Part shown: piece after piece, positions 21,256-25,996 of the stretch
Numbering within the stretch: position 1 is the stretch's first letter
How the letters are laid out: each line of letters starts with the position of its first letter
NCBI GenBank assembly: GCA_965649265.1
Contig: CBFGKC010000007.1
Span: 32,001-96,000, forward strand
Direction: 5' to 3'
Length of the DNA stretch: 64,000 nucleotides
DNA from: a candidate division WOR-3 bacterium
GTDB taxonomy: Bacteria; Hydrothermota; Tepidihabitantia; B3-TA06
Made by a program: the position numbers and the translations under genes
Notes under the pieces: generated by a model
Database searches by the model: none
The model's input: only the letters and a program-made list of their open reading frames with translations
Told to the model about the DNA's origin: nothing

Positions 21256-21342
21256 AACTGAAGTCTAACATTAAAACATCTTGTGTCAAGAATCCCTACT
21301 AGAGGACTTGACAAAACAATCCATACCGTTATAATAAGAATT

Positions 21343-21744
21343 GTGAACAGGTTGAATACTACTGTACGTTATGCTGTGAGGGCTACTCTGGCGCTCGCTG
21401 ATAATGACGAGAAACCTTTATCAATAAAAGCTATATCCGAGATGGAAGGGCTTTCCGTAAAATATCTTGAACAGCTTTTCCTGAAGCTGCGCAAGGCCGG
21501 GCTCGTACGCAGCCTGAGGGGCATGCATGGCGGATACTTCCTGGCCAGACCCGCAGAAAAAATCAGCCTCGGTGACATAATAAAAGCCGTTCAGAACGAA
21601 GGAGTTTTCGTTTCACCATGCACACGTCGTAAGGGCCACTGCGAGCGTCAGAAAGAATGCAGGGCCAGAAATTACTGGTGCAAACTCCAGGACATCCTGG
21701 ACGATTTTTTCAACAACACCTCGCTTTCATCATTGCAGGGATGA
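21343..21744 (+). CDS. Rrf2 family transcriptional regulator
   Basis: RYAVRA, YLEQLF..L..AGLV.S.RG..GGY.LA, three C-terminal Cys; GTG 7 nt after TTGACA-N16-TATAAT. Confidence 0.9.
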   Translation: MNRLNTTVRYAVRATLALADNDEKPLSIKAISEMEGLSVKYLEQLFLKLRKAGLVRSLRGMHGGYFLARPAEKISLGDIIKAVQNEGVFVSPCTRRKGHCERQKECRARNYWCKLQDILDDFFNNTSLSSLQG

Positions 21745-22061
21745 GCTTTCTGGAAGTGCAGACCAGCTTTAAACTTGCAGAGGATGCAAAAAGAATTTCA
21801 CGCAAAATCGTTGAAGAACACCTCGCCGCATGCGCTAACGTTGTGCGTGGAGATTCTATCTACCACTGGAAAGGTGAGTTAGAAGAAGAGGAAGAGGTAT
21901 TCGTCTACTTCAAGACCGACGAAAAACATTACAAGGCTTTGGAGGCAAGGCTAAAGGAACTTCACCCATATGAGGTTCCAATGATCGTCGCCTTGCCGAT
22001 CAAGGATGGCCTAAGTCACTATTTAAGTTGGATTAGAGAGAACCTTTCGAAGGAGAAATAA
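21741..22061 (+). CDS. cutA: Divalent-cation tolerance protein CutA
   Basis: LAACAN, SIYHWKG, HPYEVP, YLSW. Confidence 0.92.
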   Translation: MSFLEVQTSFKLAEDAKRISRKIVEEHLAACANVVRGDSIYHWKGELEEEEEVFVYFKTDEKHYKALEARLKELHPYEVPMIVALPIKDGLSHYLSWIRENLSKEK

Positions 22062-22366
22062 TGGTCACAAAGCTGCAGGTAAGGGAAGCGTTAAAAAAAG
22101 TTATCGATCCTGAAATCGGGCTCAACATCGTAGACCTCGGGCTCATTTACGACGTTCAGGTCGAAGATGACGTAGCTCACGTCCGTATGACACTTACAGT
22201 GCCGGGCTGCCCACTGAGCGGTATGCTCACGAGTCAGGCCGAAAAGGTCGTGAGCGAAATTGAAGGCATAAAGGGCGTAAAAATTGAACTTACGTGGGAT
22301 CCGCCATGGAATCCCCAGATGATGTCCGACGACGCCAAGCGCAAGCTCGGCTGGGGCGGGCAGTAA
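22061..22366 (+). CDS. Metal-sulfur cluster assembly factor (DUF59/SufT)
   Basis: VIDPEIGLNIVDLGLIY, TLTVPGCP, WDPPW. Confidence 0.92.
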   Translation: MVTKLQVREALKKVIDPEIGLNIVDLGLIYDVQVEDDVAHVRMTLTVPGCPLSGMLTSQAEKVVSEIEGIKGVKIELTWDPPWNPQMMSDDAKRKLGWGGQ

Positions 22367-22418
22367 TCGCATAAGTTTTAGCTAAACAATTAGTTAAGAG
22401 TAAAACGACTCCGGTTTT

Positions 22419-22456
22419 GGGGTCCCCGTAAGAGCGCGCAGCGATCTTGTGGGGTG
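22419..22456 (+). repeat. GGGGTCCCC..TGGGGT hairpin repeat, copy 1
   Basis: CCCCG-TAAGA-G-CGC-GCA-GCG-A-TCTTG-TGGGG; related copies at 24620, 58619, 61476, 63791. Confidence 0.75.
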
Positions 22457-22593
22457 TAAAATTAAGTAGGACAAAAGATGGTCAAAAGATGGACAAAACG
22501 GCAAATTTGCCCTCCAAAATGACTGAAATTCAGGGCAGATTTCAAAGCGCCGCCATGAGCGGCGGTAGGTTTTCTGGGGGGTAAAACCGAAAT

Positions 22594-22633
22594 TGTCTTT
22601 GCGAGAGTCGCTGCTAGCGACCGAAGCAATCGC
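22594..22633 (+). repeat. Left half of a TGTCwTTGCGAG..GACCGAAGCAATCGC REP-like element
   Basis: Inverted partner at 24159-24235. Confidence 0.8.
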
Positions 22634-22642
22634 CTAAATCCT

Positions 22643-24100
22643 TTATGGAAGCTTTTCCTTGATGGCTGAGATTATTCTGTTTCCATCTTCTTCATTCAGA
22701 CTTGTTTTACACCATTCTTCCGCAAGTATTTCCCAAACGGCTTGTTTACTCTTCACAATTTTATTTCCTAAAGATTCTGTCCATTTGTGATGATTTGGTT
22801 GGAGTATACATTCATCGAGATCTTGGAATAAAGTTCCAGCCCCTATACCAAAACGTTCATTAAGAGATGACCAATTCTGCTGTTTTAAGCTCTCAAAAAC
22901 AACCCTCTCTGGAGCTTTATTGCCAGGCAAAGAAACTAACCCTTCATGAGGTGTATCACCATCAGTGATTGCCATTGAATTGTAAGGCAATCTGTTTTTT
23001 GAAGCTAACTCACCCATGGTGTTAACTACATTCGCCCCACCAATAGGCACGATGTCTATCCTTGGGAGCAAGGTTTGTCCTTGTTCGTTGTTTGCGAGAA
23101 TCGCTCTCAGAAGAATTTTTGATTCTAAATCTTCCACAAAAACATGTAACTCTGGATAGGTTGCTGAGTCTAATCTGCTTAACGCGAATTCAGAACTTGC
23201 CCCGTATACTATATTCATCTTGTCTTTACCTGGTTCTCTTCCTGGCAAAAGTAGAACTTTAGCTTCCTCAGGCAATTCTTCGAAAACATAAGAGCTATGT
23301 GTGGAAATAATGAATTGAACTTTATTTATTCTGCTGAACCAAAGCAGAAATTGAACAAGTCGCCTTTGTGCCTTAGGGTGTAAGGAAGCTTCAAGTTCGT
23401 CAATAATAACAAGAGAAGTAGGTGGAATAAGTTGAAGGCTTCGTATTAGATCTAAAGTCGAATCTTCGCCTGCACCTTGATGGAACTGCGAGATTTCGCC
23501 GAACCCCCTCGTGAGTAAACCTACTTCCTTTTTTTTGTCTAAATCTGTGGTCGCGAATCGTGCATTCAAATACTCCCGTCCTAATATACTTGAAAGTCGC
23601 TTTCTGAACTCAGGTAATATTTCTGTCGTTGAGGTTTCCTTAGACGCATAGTAAGCTATTTTCGGATAACCTACAGTTGCATCAAGCGGTAACGTACGGG
23701 CAACATCGAAAAAAAATACCGCGCGTTTGACTCGGCTTTCCGGAAATGCCCAACGCTCAGTATGTTTTTTTATTTCAAAGCTCCTTACATCCTGACCTTG
23801 ACGGACCCGATATTCCAAAGACAATTTTGAAATGTCATCCCATTGTGTTTTGATGAAAAATTTCGCTGGATAAAATGTTTTCCGTGATTTTTCATCTTGT
23901 TCATAAGCACATGCGGCTACTTTTAGTAATGTACTTTTGCCAGTTCCATTTTCACCAACAATTGCCGTAACGGGAAAGCGGAAATTAACAGTTTCACCTA
24001 ACCATCCTCTTAACCCATTTATTGATATTGATTCAAGAAACTTCGGCCACTGGCCTGCTAAGTGTTGTTTGTGTATCTTGTCTATTTCTTCGTAATCCAT
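22643..24100 (-). CDS. OLD-like ATP-dependent nuclease (ABC-type ATPase + TOPRIM-like domain), putative defence gene
   Basis: Walker A GENGTGKS, signature GAGE, Walker B IIDELEASLHP, STHS H-loop, VFVED and ITDGD acidic motifs; AT-rich; AGGAGGT SD at the ATG 24100. Confidence 0.8.
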   Translation of the reverse strand: MDYEEIDKIHKQHLAGQWPKFLESISINGLRGWLGETVNFRFPVTAIVGENGTGKSTLLKVAACAYEQDEKSRKTFYPAKFFIKTQWDDISKLSLEYRVRQGQDVRSFEIKKHTERWAFPESRVKRAVFFFDVARTLPLDATVGYPKIAYYASKETSTTEILPEFRKRLSSILGREYLNARFATTDLDKKKEVGLLTRGFGEISQFHQGAGEDSTLDLIRSLQLIPPTSLVIIDELEASLHPKAQRRLVQFLLWFSRINKVQFIISTHSSYVFEELPEEAKVLLLPGREPGKDKMNIVYGASSEFALSRLDSATYPELHVFVEDLESKILLRAILANNEQGQTLLPRIDIVPIGGANVVNTMGELASKNRLPYNSMAITDGDTPHEGLVSLPGNKAPERVVFESLKQQNWSSLNERFGIGAGTLFQDLDECILQPNHHKWTESLGNKIVKSKQAVWEILAEEWCKTSLNEEDGNRIISAIKEKLP

Positions 24101-24122
24101 CAGATACCTCCTATAAGAATGA

Positions 24123-24150
24123 ATCATAAGCCTTTTATTAGGAATGTCAA
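24123..24150 (-). promoter_or_regulatory. Promoter of the OLD-like gene
   Basis: TTGACA-N16-TATGAT on the minus strand. Confidence 0.7.
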
Positions 24151-24158
24151 TGGTATTT

Positions 24159-24235
24159 GCGATTGCTTCGGTCACTCGGCGCTCTTGCGGAAGGTACTTC
24201 CGCCCATGCGCCCCTGGCGCTCCCTCGCAATGACA
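24159..24235 (-). repeat. Right half of the REP-like element, with a nested insert
   Basis: Reverse complement TGTCATTGCGAGG-GAGCGCC..GAGCGCC-GAGTGACCGAAGCAATCGC. Confidence 0.8.
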
Positions 24236-24242
24236 GTAAAGG

Positions 24243-24685
24243 TCCCCCTCCCTAGTGGAGGGGGAAGGGGGCGGGGAGCAAGTTAGCGACCAAGGGGTCG
24301 CATTGGTCGAACTCACGTTCGACAGATAGCTGCAGAATCTGAGGGAGCGCCCCCCGGGGGGCCAACAAGCTCTCAGCAATTTTGTTAGAGATCTCTTTTG
24401 CCCCGCCTCCCTTATGAAGGGAGGTGACCGGAGGTCGGAGGGATCTTCGATTTCTGATCCCCCTCCCCCATCGAGGGGGAGGAATCCCTCACCTCTAACT
24501 CCTCTCCCGAAGGGCGAGGAGAACTATATACCCTCCTCCGCTCCGGGATGAGGATGTGTTACGGGACCTCTCCCATCGGGAGAGGGTGACGATCTAGAAG
24601 ATCGTCGGGTGAGGGCAGCGGGGTCCCCAAGCGGGCGCTTTGCGATCGCCTGGAGTGGTCTCTGAGGGTGGCTGAGGAGGGCTTT
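24243..24685. repeat. Cluster of GC-rich palindromes (CCCTCTCCC..GGGAGAGGG type and others)
   Basis: CCCCTCC..GGAGGGG, CCTCCCTT..AAGGGAGG, CCTCCCCC..GGGGGAGG, CCTCTCCC-ATC-GGGAGAGG, plus a GGGGTCCCC copy at 24620. Confidence 0.75.
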
Positions 24686-24730
24686 ATCTTGACTTTTAGC
24701 GAGAGATGAATATAGTTAAGAATGTCAATC

Positions 24731-24806
24731 GGGCGATTAGCTCAGCTTTGGTTAGAGTACTTGCTTGACATGCAAGGGGTCAAAGGTTCGAATCCTTTAT
24801 CGCCCA
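24731..24806 (+). tRNA. tRNA-Val(GAC), CCA not encoded
   Basis: GGGCGATTAGCTCAG..CTTGC-TTGACAT-GCAAG..GGTTCGAATCC..ATCGCCCA; TTGACT/TATAGT promoter upstream. Confidence 0.95.
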
Positions 24807-24830
24807 TTATGAGAAAACGGGGAAGGCTAA

Positions 24831-25532
24831 GTGCCTGAAGAAAAGCGACTCCTGAAGCAGCTACAATCTTCGGATACAAAATTACACGAATTACAAACCC
24901 AGCACGACGCAATTCCAAAAAAAATCAAAGCCCTTGAAGCGGAGATCGAAGCGCTCCGTCACGGAATTGAGGAGTTGAAGGCCTCGCGCATAACCGCGCA
25001 AAAGGAGCTCAAAACGGCTGAGCTAAACCTGGGCACGCAGGAGGAGGCGGTGGGCAAGTACAACTCCCAGCTCTTCAGCGCAAGGACGAACGAGGAGTAC
25101 AAGGCCTTTCTCAAGGAAATCGAGACCGCGGAGAAGAACAAGAAGGCGTTTGAGGACAAGATAATCGAGTGGATGGAGACCATCGAGCGCATTGACAAGG
25201 AGATTGTCGCGAAAGAGGCCGAACTCAAGAGCGAGGAGGCCGTCAAGCGTATCGAGATTGAGTCGGAAAAGGCGAAAGGGGCAGGGCTCGAGCAGGAGAT
25301 AAAAGAGGAGAAGGAAAAGAGGGGGAATTTCCGCAAAGCGGTTCCTGCGAACATCCTGGCCATATACGACCGGATTCAAAAGAACAAGGGCGTGCTTGCC
25401 GCCGCGCTCATACTCGAGGGCAACCGGTGCTCAGGCTGCTTCAACCTTGTGCCCGCCCAGAAGGCAATAGAGGCCGAGCACTCGAGCGAACTCTCCTTCT
25501 GCGAATACTGCGGCAGAATCCTTATTAAATAA
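24831..25532 (+). CDS. Coiled-coil, C4 zinc-ribbon protein (DUF164/CT398-like)
   Basis: Long coiled coil, CSGC..CEYCGRIL. Confidence 0.9.
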   Translation: MPEEKRLLKQLQSSDTKLHELQTQHDAIPKKIKALEAEIEALRHGIEELKASRITAQKELKTAELNLGTQEEAVGKYNSQLFSARTNEEYKAFLKEIETAEKNKKAFEDKIIEWMETIERIDKEIVAKEAELKSEEAVKRIEIESEKAKGAGLEQEIKEEKEKRGNFRKAVPANILAIYDRIQKNKGVLAAALILEGNRCSGCFNLVPAQKAIEAEHSSELSFCEYCGRILIK

Positions 25533-25567
25533 CCACCGATGATCTGCGGGAACGCGGAGAACAAAAA

Positions 25568-25996
25568 GTGACGGTTCAAAAGAAAATTTTTCCTGACGAC
25601 GCTGACACTGCCCAGGCCTGGATAGACGGCGCCTCCAGCGGTAACCCCGGCCCTGCGGGCGCGGGCGGGATCATCAAGAGGGAAGGAAAGGTCGTGGGAA
25701 GCTTCAGCGTGTTTCTTGGCGAGCAAACCAACAACTTTGCCGAATACTCTGCGCTCATACTCGTTCTCGAAAAGGCGGAAGAGCTCGGAATCCGTTCTCT
25801 GGAGGTGCGCACGGACTCGGAGCTTCTCTTCAGGCAGATGACCGGCCGCTACAAGGTTCGCAACCCGGGGATACTCGAATTGTACGAGAAGGCGATTTCG
25901 ATAAAGAGGAAATTCAAAATGGTGCGCATACTGCACGTTCCGCGCGAGGAGAACAAGGAAGCCGACAAGCTCGCGCGCGCCGCTCGCGGAGGATGA
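25568..25996 (+). CDS. rnhA: Ribonuclease HI family
   Basis: DGASSGNPG, TNNFAEY, TDSEL, REENKEAD. Confidence 0.9.
   Translation: MTVQKKIFPDDADTAQAWIDGASSGNPGPAGAGGIIKREGKVVGSFSVFLGEQTNNFAEYSALILVLEKAEELGIRSLEVRTDSELLFRQMTGRYKVRNPGILELYEKAISIKRKFKMVRILHVPREENKEADKLARAARGG

What the first reader, a model, noticed from the sequence alone, without database searches (positions are those of the whole stretch)
22594..24235. Self-contained OLD-like defence gene packaged inside a split REP-like palindrome
Seen: TGTCTTTGCGAG..GACCGAAGCAATCGC (22594-22633) ends 9 nt from the stop codon. Its inverted partner GCGATTGCTTCGGTC..CTCGCAATGACA (24159-24235) begins 8 nt beyond the -35 box. Between them lie only a promoter, SD and an AT-rich ATPase-TOPRIM gene. 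There is no transposase or integrase, and the flanks are housekeeping genes. Established: ABC-ATPase/TOPRIM (OLD, GajA-like) proteins are often anti-phage, and REP doublets normally enclose only a short spacer. Inference: a non-autonomous, REP-bracketed single-gene cassette, possibly an undescribed route for trafficking defence genes.
Basis: partly seen in the sequence, partly recalled or inferred. Interest (0 to 1): 0.82.

Follow-up and report, generated by a model that had tools for sequence, protein, structure and literature searches.

The report
Defence gene between inverted REP hairpins
A horizontally acquired anti-phage-type nuclease gene sits in a gene-swapping hot spot bordered by two inverted copies of a repeated DNA hairpin, an arrangement that recurs around other foreign genes in this lineage but is not shown to move as a unit.

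Summary
A 40-nt REP-like hairpin (22594-22633) and a 77-nt long form (24159-24235) lie inverted, 9 nt from the stop and 8 nt from the -35 box of a 485-aa, low-GC gene. The protein is an OLD-type ABC-ATPase/TOPRIM nuclease of the PADLOC HEC-04 family (1e-59). Its best homologs are 62% identical, in other phyla.

The hairpin belongs to a lineage-wide family. It has 36-55 copies here, compensatory changes in its inner stem, and occurs in 9 of 11 family genomes. It is not part of the gene's vehicle: 0 of 80 homolog loci carry it.

The site between the DUF59 gene and tRNA-Val is variable. It is empty in one genus. In the sister species it holds a KAP NTPase between the same two REPs. A roughly 94.5%-identical metagenomic relative has 2180 other letters there.

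In this genome 9 REP pairs enclose 0.5-3 kb (2.6 expected), and 7 of them hold genes of 36-40% GC. All cargos are single-copy, and no target duplication or cognate transposase was found.

A directional 11-nt iteron array also marks the border: low-GC gene ahead in 19 of 40 loci, behind in 0 of 44.

Best reading: a repeat-bordered cassette-exchange hot spot. A REP-bounded mobile unit remains possible but unshown.

The parts
22061..22366 (+). Conserved left flank gene (FeS_assembly_P / DUF59 family, 101 aa)
   Evidence: Pfam PF01883, 1e-23. Syntenic in 8 relatives.
22454..22586 (+). Dispersed repeat X: an iteron block followed by a tail of about 100 nt with two hairpins
   Evidence: 80-94% identical copies at G000 C6:21285, C15:1624, C2:187098, C8:86296 and C25:119. 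A terminator-like hairpin lies at 22548-22564.
22467..22488 (+). Tandem 11-nt iterons (NNGGWCARAAR), pointing towards the cargo
   Evidence: The Logan contig of run X2 is alike up to 22487 and then differs.
22594..22633 (-). Left REP, short form, complete unit; it follows the gene's stop codon by 9 nt
   Evidence: Covariance-model hit of 59.1 bits.
22643..24100 (-). OLD-type ABC-ATPase/TOPRIM gene (485 aa, HEC-04 family), stop codon included
   Evidence: PADLOC HEC-04 9.9e-60. Pfam AAA_21 and AAA_15. Foldseek top hits are OLD nuclease 6p74 and GajA. K55, D234/E235, E323/D324 and D380/D382 are invariant in 24 homologs.
24106..24112 (-). Shine-Dalgarno AGGAGGT
   Evidence: Read from the sequence.
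24123..24150 (-). Sigma-70-like promoter, TTGACA-16-TATGAT
   Evidence: 11 of 12 matches. This is a consensus match only.
24159..24235 (+). Right REP, long form (77 nt), complete unit
   Evidence: Model hit at 24157-24238 of 32 bits. 88% identical to the unit at the same place in G001.
24243..24590 (.). Cluster of G/C-rich palindromes of other repeat families
   Evidence: the repeat finder D1, I2 and I4. Copies occur in relatives.
24731..24806 (+). tRNA-Val(GAC), conserved right flank
   Evidence: ARAGORN. Rfam RF00005, 66 bits.

Best explanation
The gene is an intact, self-promoted, single-gene defence candidate. It is an OLD-type ABC-ATPase fused to a TOPRIM nuclease, of the HEC-04 family, and was acquired horizontally.

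It occupies a variable slot between two conserved features, the DUF59 gene and tRNA-Val. In this slot whole-gene cassettes differ between relatives, as in the 'minimal mobile element' hot spots of Neisseria.

The two inverted hairpins are resident members of a lineage-wide REP/REPIN-like family with no linked transposase. They border the cassette, and so does a directional 11-nt iteron array.

Inferred mechanism: cassettes are gained and swapped by recombination at these shared repeats. The repeats would act as short portable homology, or as fragile palindromes, in DNA taken up from relatives. The REP-gene-REP unit would not transpose by itself.

Shown: the family membership of the gene, the structure of the repeat, the variability of the site, and the genome-wide association of REPs and iterons with low-GC genes. 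Inferred: that the repeats cause the exchange.
For: Gene:
- PADLOC HEC-04 9.9e-60 over residues 6-408.
- AlphaFold model with mean pLDDT 81.8. The best Foldseek hits are OLD nuclease 6p74 (3e-14) and GajA.
- The Walker A lysine, the TOPRIM glutamate and the DxD motif are invariant in 24 homologs.
- Published passages report that HEC-04 defence is lost in K62A and in E319A/D375A/D377A mutants.
- Foreign origin: the best homologs are 61-62% identical, in Nostoc and other phyla. Only 2 of 132 genomes of the class match, G000 and one hit at 33%.

Variable site:
- G003 has about 290 bp between the two flanks and no REP. G006 and G010 have a methyltransferase-like gene and no REP. G004 and the metagenome locus L174 have about 420 bp.
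- G001, of the same genus, has REP(-), then a 478-aa KAP NTPase on the other strand (Pfam 4.5e-30, PADLOC PDC-S20 1e-29), then a long REP(+).
- On the right side, likeness between G000 and G001 resumes exactly at GCGATTGCTTCG.
- The right REP is 88% identical between the two species, while the flanking genes are 72% identical.
- A 59,945-nt contig of run X2 matches both flanks at about 94.5% and has 2180 other letters between 22487 and 24683.

Repeat family:
- 49 exact outer motifs against 5.5 expected.
- 6 of 7 inner-stem pairs show changes on both sides; 0 of 500 shuffles reach the observed covariation score.
- 9 of 11 family genomes hold the pattern, with 0 hits for the reversed control.

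Recurrence:
- 9 consecutive pairs lie 500-3000 nt apart against 2.57 expected (9 or more in 10 of 20,000 shuffles).
- 5 of them are in the -/+ orientation against 0.64 expected (5 or more in 6 of 20,000).
- 7 of the 9 enclose DNA of 36-40% GC.
- G001 has an array REP-/GIY-YIG/REP+ then REP-/HNH/REP+ where G000 has REP-/199-aa ORF/REP+.
- A synteny break between G000 and G001 has both ends at REP-bearing sites.

Iterons: the gene ahead is low-GC in 19 of 40 loci and the gene behind in 0 of 44. In G003, GC ahead is lower than behind at 28 of 35 loci.
Against: No recombination event was observed directly. The causal role of the repeats is inferred from position alone.

In the X2 relative the replaced segment starts at the iterons and ends near the tRNA promoter, not at the REPs.

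The junctions are not uniform. In G000 the cargo abuts the inner ends of a -/+ pair. In G003 the cargos lie between complete -/+ doublets and abut the outer ends. That weakens any site-specific reading and also fits passive accumulation.

Only 14 of 71 low-GC islands have a REP within 700 nt, and 49 of 71 have neither a REP nor an iteron.

The pair test used a distance band chosen after looking at the data, and crude ORF calls rather than a gene caller. Two of the 9 pairs enclose ordinary 55-59% GC genes.

The left REPs of G000 and G001 have different inner stems, so simple vertical descent of both borders is not shown.
Confidence: 0.5

Rival explanations
1. The REP-gene-REP segment is a genuine non-autonomous mobile unit. 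It would be a REPIN whose spacer has been expanded by a cargo gene, or an integron-like cassette with hairpin sites and iteron accessory sites. An enzyme encoded elsewhere would move it, such as a RAYT-like HUH nuclease or a tyrosine recombinase.
For: - Native short-spaced doublets have the same -/+ orientation as the cargo-bearing pairs: 5 of 11 in G000, and 10 of 12 in G003 by my count of the listing.
- The low-GC cargo pairs are 5 in -/+, 2 in +/+ and 0 in +/-.
- The two arms of the C1 pair share a rare inner-stem type.
- In G001 a REP doublet joined to repeat X is near-identical at 9 or more contig ends, which suggests recent spread.
- The left REP differs between G000 and G001 at the same site, so it could have come in with its cargo.
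- In 4 IMG/VR contigs a triple 11-mer of the iteron type lies between the 3' end of an integrase-like ORF (judged by eye from its first residues, not searched) and a tRNA-like 3' end (read by eye, not run through ARAGORN). That is where arm-type integrase sites lie.
Against: - 9 of 9 cargo proteins tested are single-copy in G000.
- 0 of 80 OLD-homolog loci carry the REP.
- Homologs of the 199-aa cargo in G005 and G009, and of the 247-aa cargo in G008, have no REP hit. The KAP homolog in G003 has a REP on one side only.
- No target duplication was seen by eye at 2 pairs.
- The two RAYT genes of G000 are flanked by other palindromes.
- No IS110 transposase was found.
- No tyrosine recombinase reaches the integron-integrase cut-off: the best scores 82 bits against 265.
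- No iteron block lies near the three phage-type integrase genes, comparing the position lists.
Confidence: 0.2
2. The bracket is a by-product. REPs and REPINs are selfish or structural elements that insert and persist in dispensable, AT-rich intergenic DNA around recently acquired genes. New genes therefore end up flanked by them without the repeats taking any part in gene transfer.
For: [quoted passage not shown]
- In G003 complete doublets sit on both sides of low-GC genes, as independent REPIN insertions would.
- The same REP pattern occurs in more than 120 IMG/VR contigs. By eye from the listing, most multi-copy loci hold same-strand pairs.
- In 7 of the 11 G000 cargos I read, a forward-form REP is the REP nearest the cargo's stop codon, 9-250 nt away, like a 3' element of single genes (positions). 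In 2 more (the C1 and C6:93847 cargos) it is the farther arm of a REP doublet. In 2 no forward REP follows the stop.
Against: - The same two REP positions, orientations and form types are kept in G000 and G001 while the cargo between them differs in family and strand. Likeness resumes exactly at the REP edge.
- The right REP is better conserved (88%) than the flanking genes (72%).
- The rearrangement break points coincide with REP sites.
- The orientation bias of cargo-bearing pairs holds.
Confidence: 0.25

Closest known systems
HEC-04 / OLD-family nucleases (P2 Old, class 2 OLD of Thermus and Burkholderia, Gabija GajA)
   Same: An N-terminal ABC ATPase fused to a C-terminal TOPRIM nuclease, encoded as a single gene. 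PADLOC HEC-04 scores 1e-59. Fold matches to 6p74 and GajA cover the whole chain. Catalytic-type residues are conserved.
   Different: No anti-phage test exists for this protein. Pfam reports only the ATPase part. There is no GajB-like or helicase partner next to it. It is 62% identical at most to any protein found.
REP / REPIN elements, and the CGTC-tagged REP superfamily (PMC3337134 and PMC3733652, passages read)
   Same: A short imperfect palindrome, tens of extragenic copies, and inverted doublets with spacers of 27-245 nt. It has no dedicated transposase, as reported for CGTC REPs. Its outer end reads CGTC/TGTC followed by AT.
   Different: The conserved outer stem encloses a second, freely covarying hairpin or a 40-nt insert in the long form. 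In G000 the tag is TGTC in 27, CGTC in 8 and other in 14 of 49 copies. Here doublets enclose whole genes of 0.6-1.5 kb. The REPIN spacers described in the passages I read are tens to about 110 bp.
Minimal mobile elements of Neisseria (definition read in PMC3082526; the original papers were not seen)
   Same: Two conserved flanking features, with different whole-gene cassettes between them in different relatives, and no mobility gene.
   Different: The comparison here is between species and genera plus one metagenomic contig, not many strains. Homologous recombination is not shown. The repeat borders (REPs and iterons) are an added feature. Whether MMEs have such borders I did not check.
Integron gene cassettes and CALINs (recalled, not read here)
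   Same: Mostly single-gene cassettes separated by structured palindromic sites. Arrays occur, such as G001:C62 and G003:C42. Direct repeats lie at one end, like the accessory repeats of attI.
   Different: No integron integrase was found. The REP ends lack the GTTRRRY/RYYYAAC core by eye. The OLD and KAP cassettes carry their own promoter-like sites. Cassettes are scattered over the chromosome rather than gathered in one platform. No attC model could be run.
Core defence hot spots and HGT hot spots (PMC10250203 and PMC5635113, search listing only)
   Same: A defence gene in a variable slot between core genes, beside a tRNA, without a visible mobile element.
   Different: Those descriptions, as far as the listings show, do not name REP or iteron borders.

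Membership tests
OLD family / HEC-04 | N-terminal ABC-type ATPase with Walker A, Walker B and H-loop | tested here: met
   Pfam AAA_21 2.3e-19, AAA_15 1e-18 and SMC_N. G49-T57 including K55, D234/E235 and H268 are invariant in 24 homologs.
OLD family / HEC-04 | C-terminal TOPRIM nuclease with a metal-binding Glu and DxD | tested here: met
   PADLOC ATPase-Toprim_I-B over residues 44-389 and HEC-04 over 6-408. Foldseek whole-chain hits to OLD nuclease 6p74 and GajA. E323/D324 and D380/D382 are invariant. Their mapping onto the published E319/D375/D377 is inferred, not aligned. No Pfam TOPRIM family matched at E 0.01.
OLD family / HEC-04 | Protects against phage | not testable with these tools
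   Only the published HEC-04 representative was assayed (passages).
REP / REPIN | Imperfect palindrome whose pairing is kept by compensatory change | tested here: met
   88.9% of cells are paired. 6 of 7 inner-stem pairs change on both sides. 0 of 500 shuffles reach the score, and slid controls give 32-48% paired.
REP / REPIN | Many dispersed, mostly extragenic copies | tested here: met
   36 model hits and 55 pattern sites in 2.74 Mb. 36 of the 55 midpoints lie outside my crude ORF set.
REP / REPIN | Inverted doublets with a short spacer | tested here: met
   G000 has 5 -/+ and 2 +/- among 11 close pairs. G003 has 10 -/+ among 12 close pairs, by my count.
REP / REPIN | A RAYT gene flanked by the same REP | tested here: not met
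   Both Y1_Tnp genes of G000 are flanked by other palindromes. In G003 a RAYT-like ORF lies between two units of this family in direct orientation, but a GTAG-type palindrome lies directly upstream of it.
Integron | Integron integrase | tested here: not met
   There are 5 tyrosine recombinases. I took two of them, 312 and 309 aa, to be XerD and XerC from length and opening residues and did not scan them. The 3 phage-type ones were scanned and score at most 82 bits on TIGR02249, against a cut-off of 265.
Integron | attC sites with R''/L''/L'/R' architecture | not tested
   No attC model or IntegronFinder was on hand. By eye the REP ends lack GTTRRRY.
Minimal mobile element / HGT hot spot | Conserved flanking genes with different whole-gene cassettes in different relatives | tested here: met
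   OLD in G000, KAP NTPase in G001, a methyltransferase-like gene in G006, G010 and L173, empty in G003, G004 and L174, and 2180 other letters in the X2 contig.
Minimal mobile element / HGT hot spot | Incorporation by homologous recombination | not testable with these tools
   Needs population data or an experiment.
MITE-bounded or composite transposon | Terminal inverted repeats plus a target-site duplication, and several copies of the unit | tested here: not met
   Inverted ends are present. No duplication was seen at the ends of the window pair or the C10 pair (by eye). All 9 cargo proteins tested are single-copy.

The most novel reading that the evidence does not exclude
In this uncultivated lineage, foreign single genes, among them defence genes, would be captured and shuffled by a recombinase-in-trans cassette system. 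Its sites would be REP hairpins on both sides and a directional array of 11-nt iterons on one side. This would be an integron-like or CIME-like mechanism dispersed over dozens of chromosomal slots, and it would give the orphan CGTC/TGTC-tagged REPs a function.
Probability: 0.2. Interest if true: 0.85.

Novelty: new variant of a known kind. Interest (0 to 1): 0.6.

Why it matters
How chromosomal defence genes without any mobile-element gene move between genomes is an open question.

This locus shows three things together. A validated type of single-gene defence system sits in a slot whose content differs between close relatives. The slot is delimited by two kinds of conserved repeats. The same repeats mark the borders of a sizeable share of the low-GC genes: 22 of 71 islands, against about 5 expected by chance.

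If the repeats prove to be the crossover or recognition sites, they would be a practical handle for finding accessory and defence genes in poorly known phyla. They would also give a role to REP families that lack a transposase.

If they are passive, the case is an ordinary hot spot decorated with selfish hairpins.

Tried and rejected
1. GIY-YIG as the REP-associated nuclease. A 95-aa GIY-YIG gene lies between REP arms in G001, and one lies beside a variant REP in G000 C25. However, tblastn with two good queries (a third was mis-framed) found 0 hits in 80 REP-bearing IMG/VR loci, 699 kb in all. The other small GIY-YIG gene of G000 (C3:162098) has no REP adjacent. Idea dropped.

2. Integron. No integrase reaches the cut-off.

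3. IS110 targeting REPs. No IS110 transposase was found in a genome 96% complete.

4. REP as an intrinsic terminator. The scan does not call either REP. Single-copy folds are unremarkable, z about -1.4 to -1.5.

5. Rfam. Only the tRNA matched in 22300-24850.

6. The search for related loci with the single protein found nothing. The alignment query found 80 loci.

7. JGI metagenomes held no member of the G000 genus. The best DUF59 match is 81% identical and has the gene order of the other genus.

8. Sequencing runs. No run held half of the words. The OLD gene (22740-24035) was uncovered in all 4 runs laid. Apart from the bridging X2 contig, I do not count this as evidence.

9. The phrase search for 'flanked by REP' and variants returned mostly unrelated papers because of word-start matching. 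My statement that cargo-bearing REP doublets are not described rests only.

11. Supplements of the papers were not consulted.

12. I did not try to name the organism.
Full report
**What is there**

The window lies at G000:C7:32001-96000 in a 2.74-Mb, 27-contig assembly of about 51% GC.

Between the FeS_assembly_P (DUF59) gene (22061-22366, +) and tRNA-Val (24731-24806, +) lie, in order:
- a dispersed repeat with tandem 11-nt units (22454-22586);
- a 40-nt hairpin element (22594-22633);
- a 485-aa gene on the minus strand (22643-24100), with AGGAGGT at 24106-24112 and a TTGACA-16-TATGAT promoter-like site at 24150-24123;
- a 77-nt long form of the same hairpin element in inverted orientation (24159-24235);
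- a cluster of G/C-rich palindromes (24243-24590).

The inner 15-mer occurs only at these two places in the window, against 0.17 expected. The gene has 38-43% GC and the flanks 47-60%. The neighbours are housekeeping genes.

**The gene**

Pfam sees only the ABC-type ATPase part: AAA_21, AAA_15 and SMC_N. PADLOC's HEC-04 model matches residues 6-408 at 9.9e-60, and the retron-type ATPase-Toprim model matches at 2.7e-21.

Sequence search of the PDB gives only weak ATPase matches, including OLD 6p74 at 1.2e-4. A model built on 24 homologs has mean pLDDT 81.8. Its best whole-chain Foldseek matches are the Thermus OLD nuclease 6p74 (3.4e-14) and Gabija GajA.

K55, D234/E235, H268, E323/D324 and D380/D382 are invariant in the 24-sequence alignment.

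I read passages of the preprint 10.1101/2024.01.29.577857. [quoted passage not shown] Its defence is lost in a Walker A mutant and in a metal-site triple mutant. That my conserved residues are the same positions is an inference.

The family is about 480 aa long and scattered over many phyla. The nearest proteins are 61-62% identical and named from Nostoc, Cylindrospermum and others. In 132 genomes of the host's class, only G000 and one match at 33% identity were found. The gene is therefore a recent import.

**The hairpin element**

The outer motif CTCGCAANGAC occurs 49 times in G000, against 5.5 expected from base composition.

Twenty-four short-form copies share GATTGCTTCG ... CTCGCAATGAC around an inner hairpin whose sequence varies. 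On 21 copies, 6 of 7 inner-stem pairs show changes on both sides, and 0 of 500 shuffles reach the observed covariation score. Slid controls pair in only 32-48% of cells, against 88.9% observed.

A covariance model finds 36, 55 and 62 copies in G000, G001 and G003. The strict pattern occurs in 9 of 11 genomes of the family, with no hit for the reversed control. The element is therefore much wider than this genus.

Close pairs are mostly in the -/+ orientation with spacers of 51-245 nt, as in REPINs: 5 of 11 in G000 and 10 of 12 in G003 by my count.

The two Y1-transposase (RAYT) genes of G000 are flanked by other palindromes. No IS110 transposase was found. None of the three phage-type tyrosine recombinases that I scanned reaches the integron-integrase threshold.

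Passages of PMC3733652 describe CGTC-tagged REPs as lacking a dedicated transposase. They also mention that dimers are undercounted because DNA gets inserted between the partners. This family resembles that class. Here the tag is TGTC in 27, CGTC in 8 and other in 14 of 49 copies.

**Is the bracket carried with the gene?**

No. None of 80 loci that encode homologs in other organisms, 448 kb in all, has a complete element. The REPs belong to the host lineage.

**Is the site variable?**

Yes.
- In G003 the two flanking features are about 290 bp apart, with no REP.
- G004 and the metagenome locus L174 have about 420 bp between them.
- G006, G010 and the metagenome locus L173 carry a methyltransferase-like gene without REPs.
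- In G001, the only other species of the genus held, the slot contains iterons, a REP(-), a 478-aa KAP-family NTPase on the opposite strand, and a long-form REP(+). The NTPase scores 4.5e-30 on Pfam and 1e-29 on PADLOC candidate PDC-S20.
- Alignment shows that on the right side the likeness between the two species begins exactly at GCGATTGCTTCG. On the left it ends just after CGAAGCAATCGCCT.
- The right REP is 88% identical between the two species, while the flanking genes are 72% identical.
- A 59,945-nt contig of run X2 matches 21300-22487 with 66 differences and 24683-25600 with 49 differences. Between these stretches it has 2180 letters that do not match. So a much closer relative also has another content. 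In that comparison the differing stretch starts right after the iteron block and reaches beyond both REPs.

**Does the pattern recur?**

Of 55 catalogued sites, 9 consecutive pairs lie 500-3000 nt apart. Uniform placement predicts 2.57, and 9 or more occurred in 10 of 20,000 shuffles. Five pairs are in the -/+ orientation against 0.64 expected, and 5 or more occurred in 6 of 20,000 shuffles.

Seven of the nine pairs enclose genes or DNA of 36-40% GC. The pseudo-gene mean is 51.8%, and the 5th percentile is 43.4%. The other two pairs enclose ordinary genes of 55-62% GC.

The distance band was chosen after looking at the data, and the genes are my own crude ORF picks.

The cargos are mostly without a family. 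Of 10 scanned:
- Pfam named the KAP NTPase and an HNH protein, both from G001;
- one further weak hit fell below its cut-off;
- 7 had nothing;
- PADLOC matched only the KAP and HNH proteins.

A second set of 9 proteins was scanned: 8 from low-GC genes beside REPs or iteron blocks in G000, and 1 from G001. It gave two DUF2254 membrane proteins, a DUF6932 protein (PADLOC PDC-M63A), an OmdA-domain protein, a GIY-YIG protein and 4 without a family. The cargo is therefore accessory, and only partly defence-like.

At the C3 slot G000 has REP-/199-aa ORF/REP+. G001 has REP-/GIY-YIG/REP+ followed by REP-/HNH/REP+. One REP of this slot is 95.6% identical between the two species.

In G003 the low-GC genes lie between complete doublets, and there are arrays such as iterons, doublet, gene, doublet, doublets, gene.

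A synteny break between G000 and G001 has both ends at REP-bearing intergenic regions.

**Against mobility of the unit**

- All 9 cargo proteins tested are single-copy in G000.
- Homologs of two cargos in other genomes have no REP nearby.
- The KAP homolog in G003 is 53% identical and has one in-frame TGA. It has a REP on one side and iterons on the other.
- I saw no target duplication.

**The iterons**

Tandem units NNGGWCARAAR occur in 51 blocks at 46 loci in G000. The reversed control pattern gives 1 hit.

The gene lying ahead of a block, in the direction as written, is low-GC in 19 of 40 cases. The gene behind is low-GC in 0 of 44 cases. The background is 5.3%.

Of 71 low-GC islands, 17 have an iteron block within 700 nt, 14 have a REP, 22 have either and 9 have both. 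Random gene sets average 2.9 with an iteron block and 2.7 with a REP.

In G003 the pattern has 81 overlapping hits and 0 control hits. Windows of 800 nt average 47.9% GC ahead and 54.9% behind. GC ahead is the lower at 28 of 35 loci, and is below 44% at 9 loci ahead and 0 behind.

The orientation of the iterons does not follow the strand of the cargo gene. By my reading they lie at the 3' end in 11 cases and at the 5' end in 7.

In four IMG/VR contigs a triple unit of this type lies between the 3' end of what looks like an integrase gene and a tRNA-like 3' end, both judged by eye. This is an analogy for arm-type recombinase sites, nothing more.

No iteron block lies near the three phage-type integrases of G000, comparing.

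**Reading**

The best-supported account is a repeat-bordered cassette slot of the minimal-mobile-element kind (definition read in PMC3082526). In G000 it holds a HEC-04/OLD-type defence gene.

Three points suggest that the repeats take part in the exchange:
- both REPs keep their position, orientation and form type while the cargo differs;
- the REP is more conserved than the flanking genes;
- in the closest relative, divergence begins at the edge of the iterons.

Three points argue against a precise, self-contained REP-bounded element:
- the junctions are heterogeneous;
- no unit is repeated;
- no enzyme is linked.

I put the odds as follows:
- 0.5 on repeat-mediated exchange at a hot spot;
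- 0.25 on passive accumulation of REPs around new genes;
- 0.2 on a true trans-mobilised cassette system.

In the papers I could search I found no description of REP doublets that carry whole genes, nor of such iteron borders. Those searches were narrow, and supplements were not seen.

Noticed in passing
window 22467-22488 (+), and 46 loci genome-wide in G000; G003 loci L253-L288: Tandem 11-nt units (NNGGWCARAAR) mark, in one direction only, the border between core DNA and low-GC genes. The gene ahead is low-GC in 19 of 40 loci and the gene behind in 0 of 44. The pattern is reproduced in another genus: GC ahead is lower than behind at 28 of 35 loci. No function is known. They could be binding sites for a recombinase or a host protein.
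   Followed up: partly
window 22454-22586: The iteron block is followed by a conserved tail of about 100 nt with two hairpins, one of them terminator-like (22548-22564). Copies 80-94% identical lie at G000 C6:21285, C15:1624, C2:187098, C8:86296 and C25:119. Several of these sit beside low-GC genes. There is no Rfam match.
   Followed up: partly
G001 contig ends (L143-L149): A near-identical composite occurs at 9 or more contig ends of G001 with the same model score. It consists of REP(-), a spacer, REP(+) of a GTGCTATGAGATTGCC subtype, and then the iteron repeat. This suggests a recently amplified element that breaks the assembly.
   Followed up: partly
G000 C2:185-190 kb and 213-218 kb versus G001:C116, C119 and C123: Gene order differs between the two species of the genus. 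Both break points lie at intergenic regions that carry REPs and low-GC cargo.
   Followed up: partly
G000 C25:1340-1420: Beside a 96-aa GIY-YIG gene lies a REP variant in which the outer stem has changed on both sides, from ATTGC/GCAAT to ATTCT/AGAAT. The family is therefore larger than my motif catalogue.
   Followed up: no
By eye from the listing, loci with several copies mostly hold same-strand pairs. No GIY-YIG homolog was found in the 80 loci kept.
   Followed up: partly
IMG/VR loci L289-L292: A triple GGTCAAAAGTT repeat lies between the stop of a 379-aa ORF that looks like an integrase (by eye) and a tRNA-like 3' end (by eye) in contigs that look like prophage ends.
   Followed up: no
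G003:C12:240119-241025 (L416 1120-2026): A RAYT-like ORF (HUH motif DHLHLL, 147 aa from stop to stop, with no in-frame start and a likely frameshift near the N-terminus) lies between two direct units of this REP family. A GTAG-type palindrome lies directly upstream of it.
   Followed up: partly
window 24243-24590: Several families of G/C-rich palindromes (TCCCCCTCCC...GGGAGGGGGA, CCTCTCCC...GGGAGAGG) fill the space between the right REP and tRNA-Val. They recur in relatives.
   Followed up: no
G003:C41:55421-56260 (L162): A homolog of the G001 KAP NTPase, 53% identical, carries one in-frame TGA. It may be a pseudogene.
   Followed up: no
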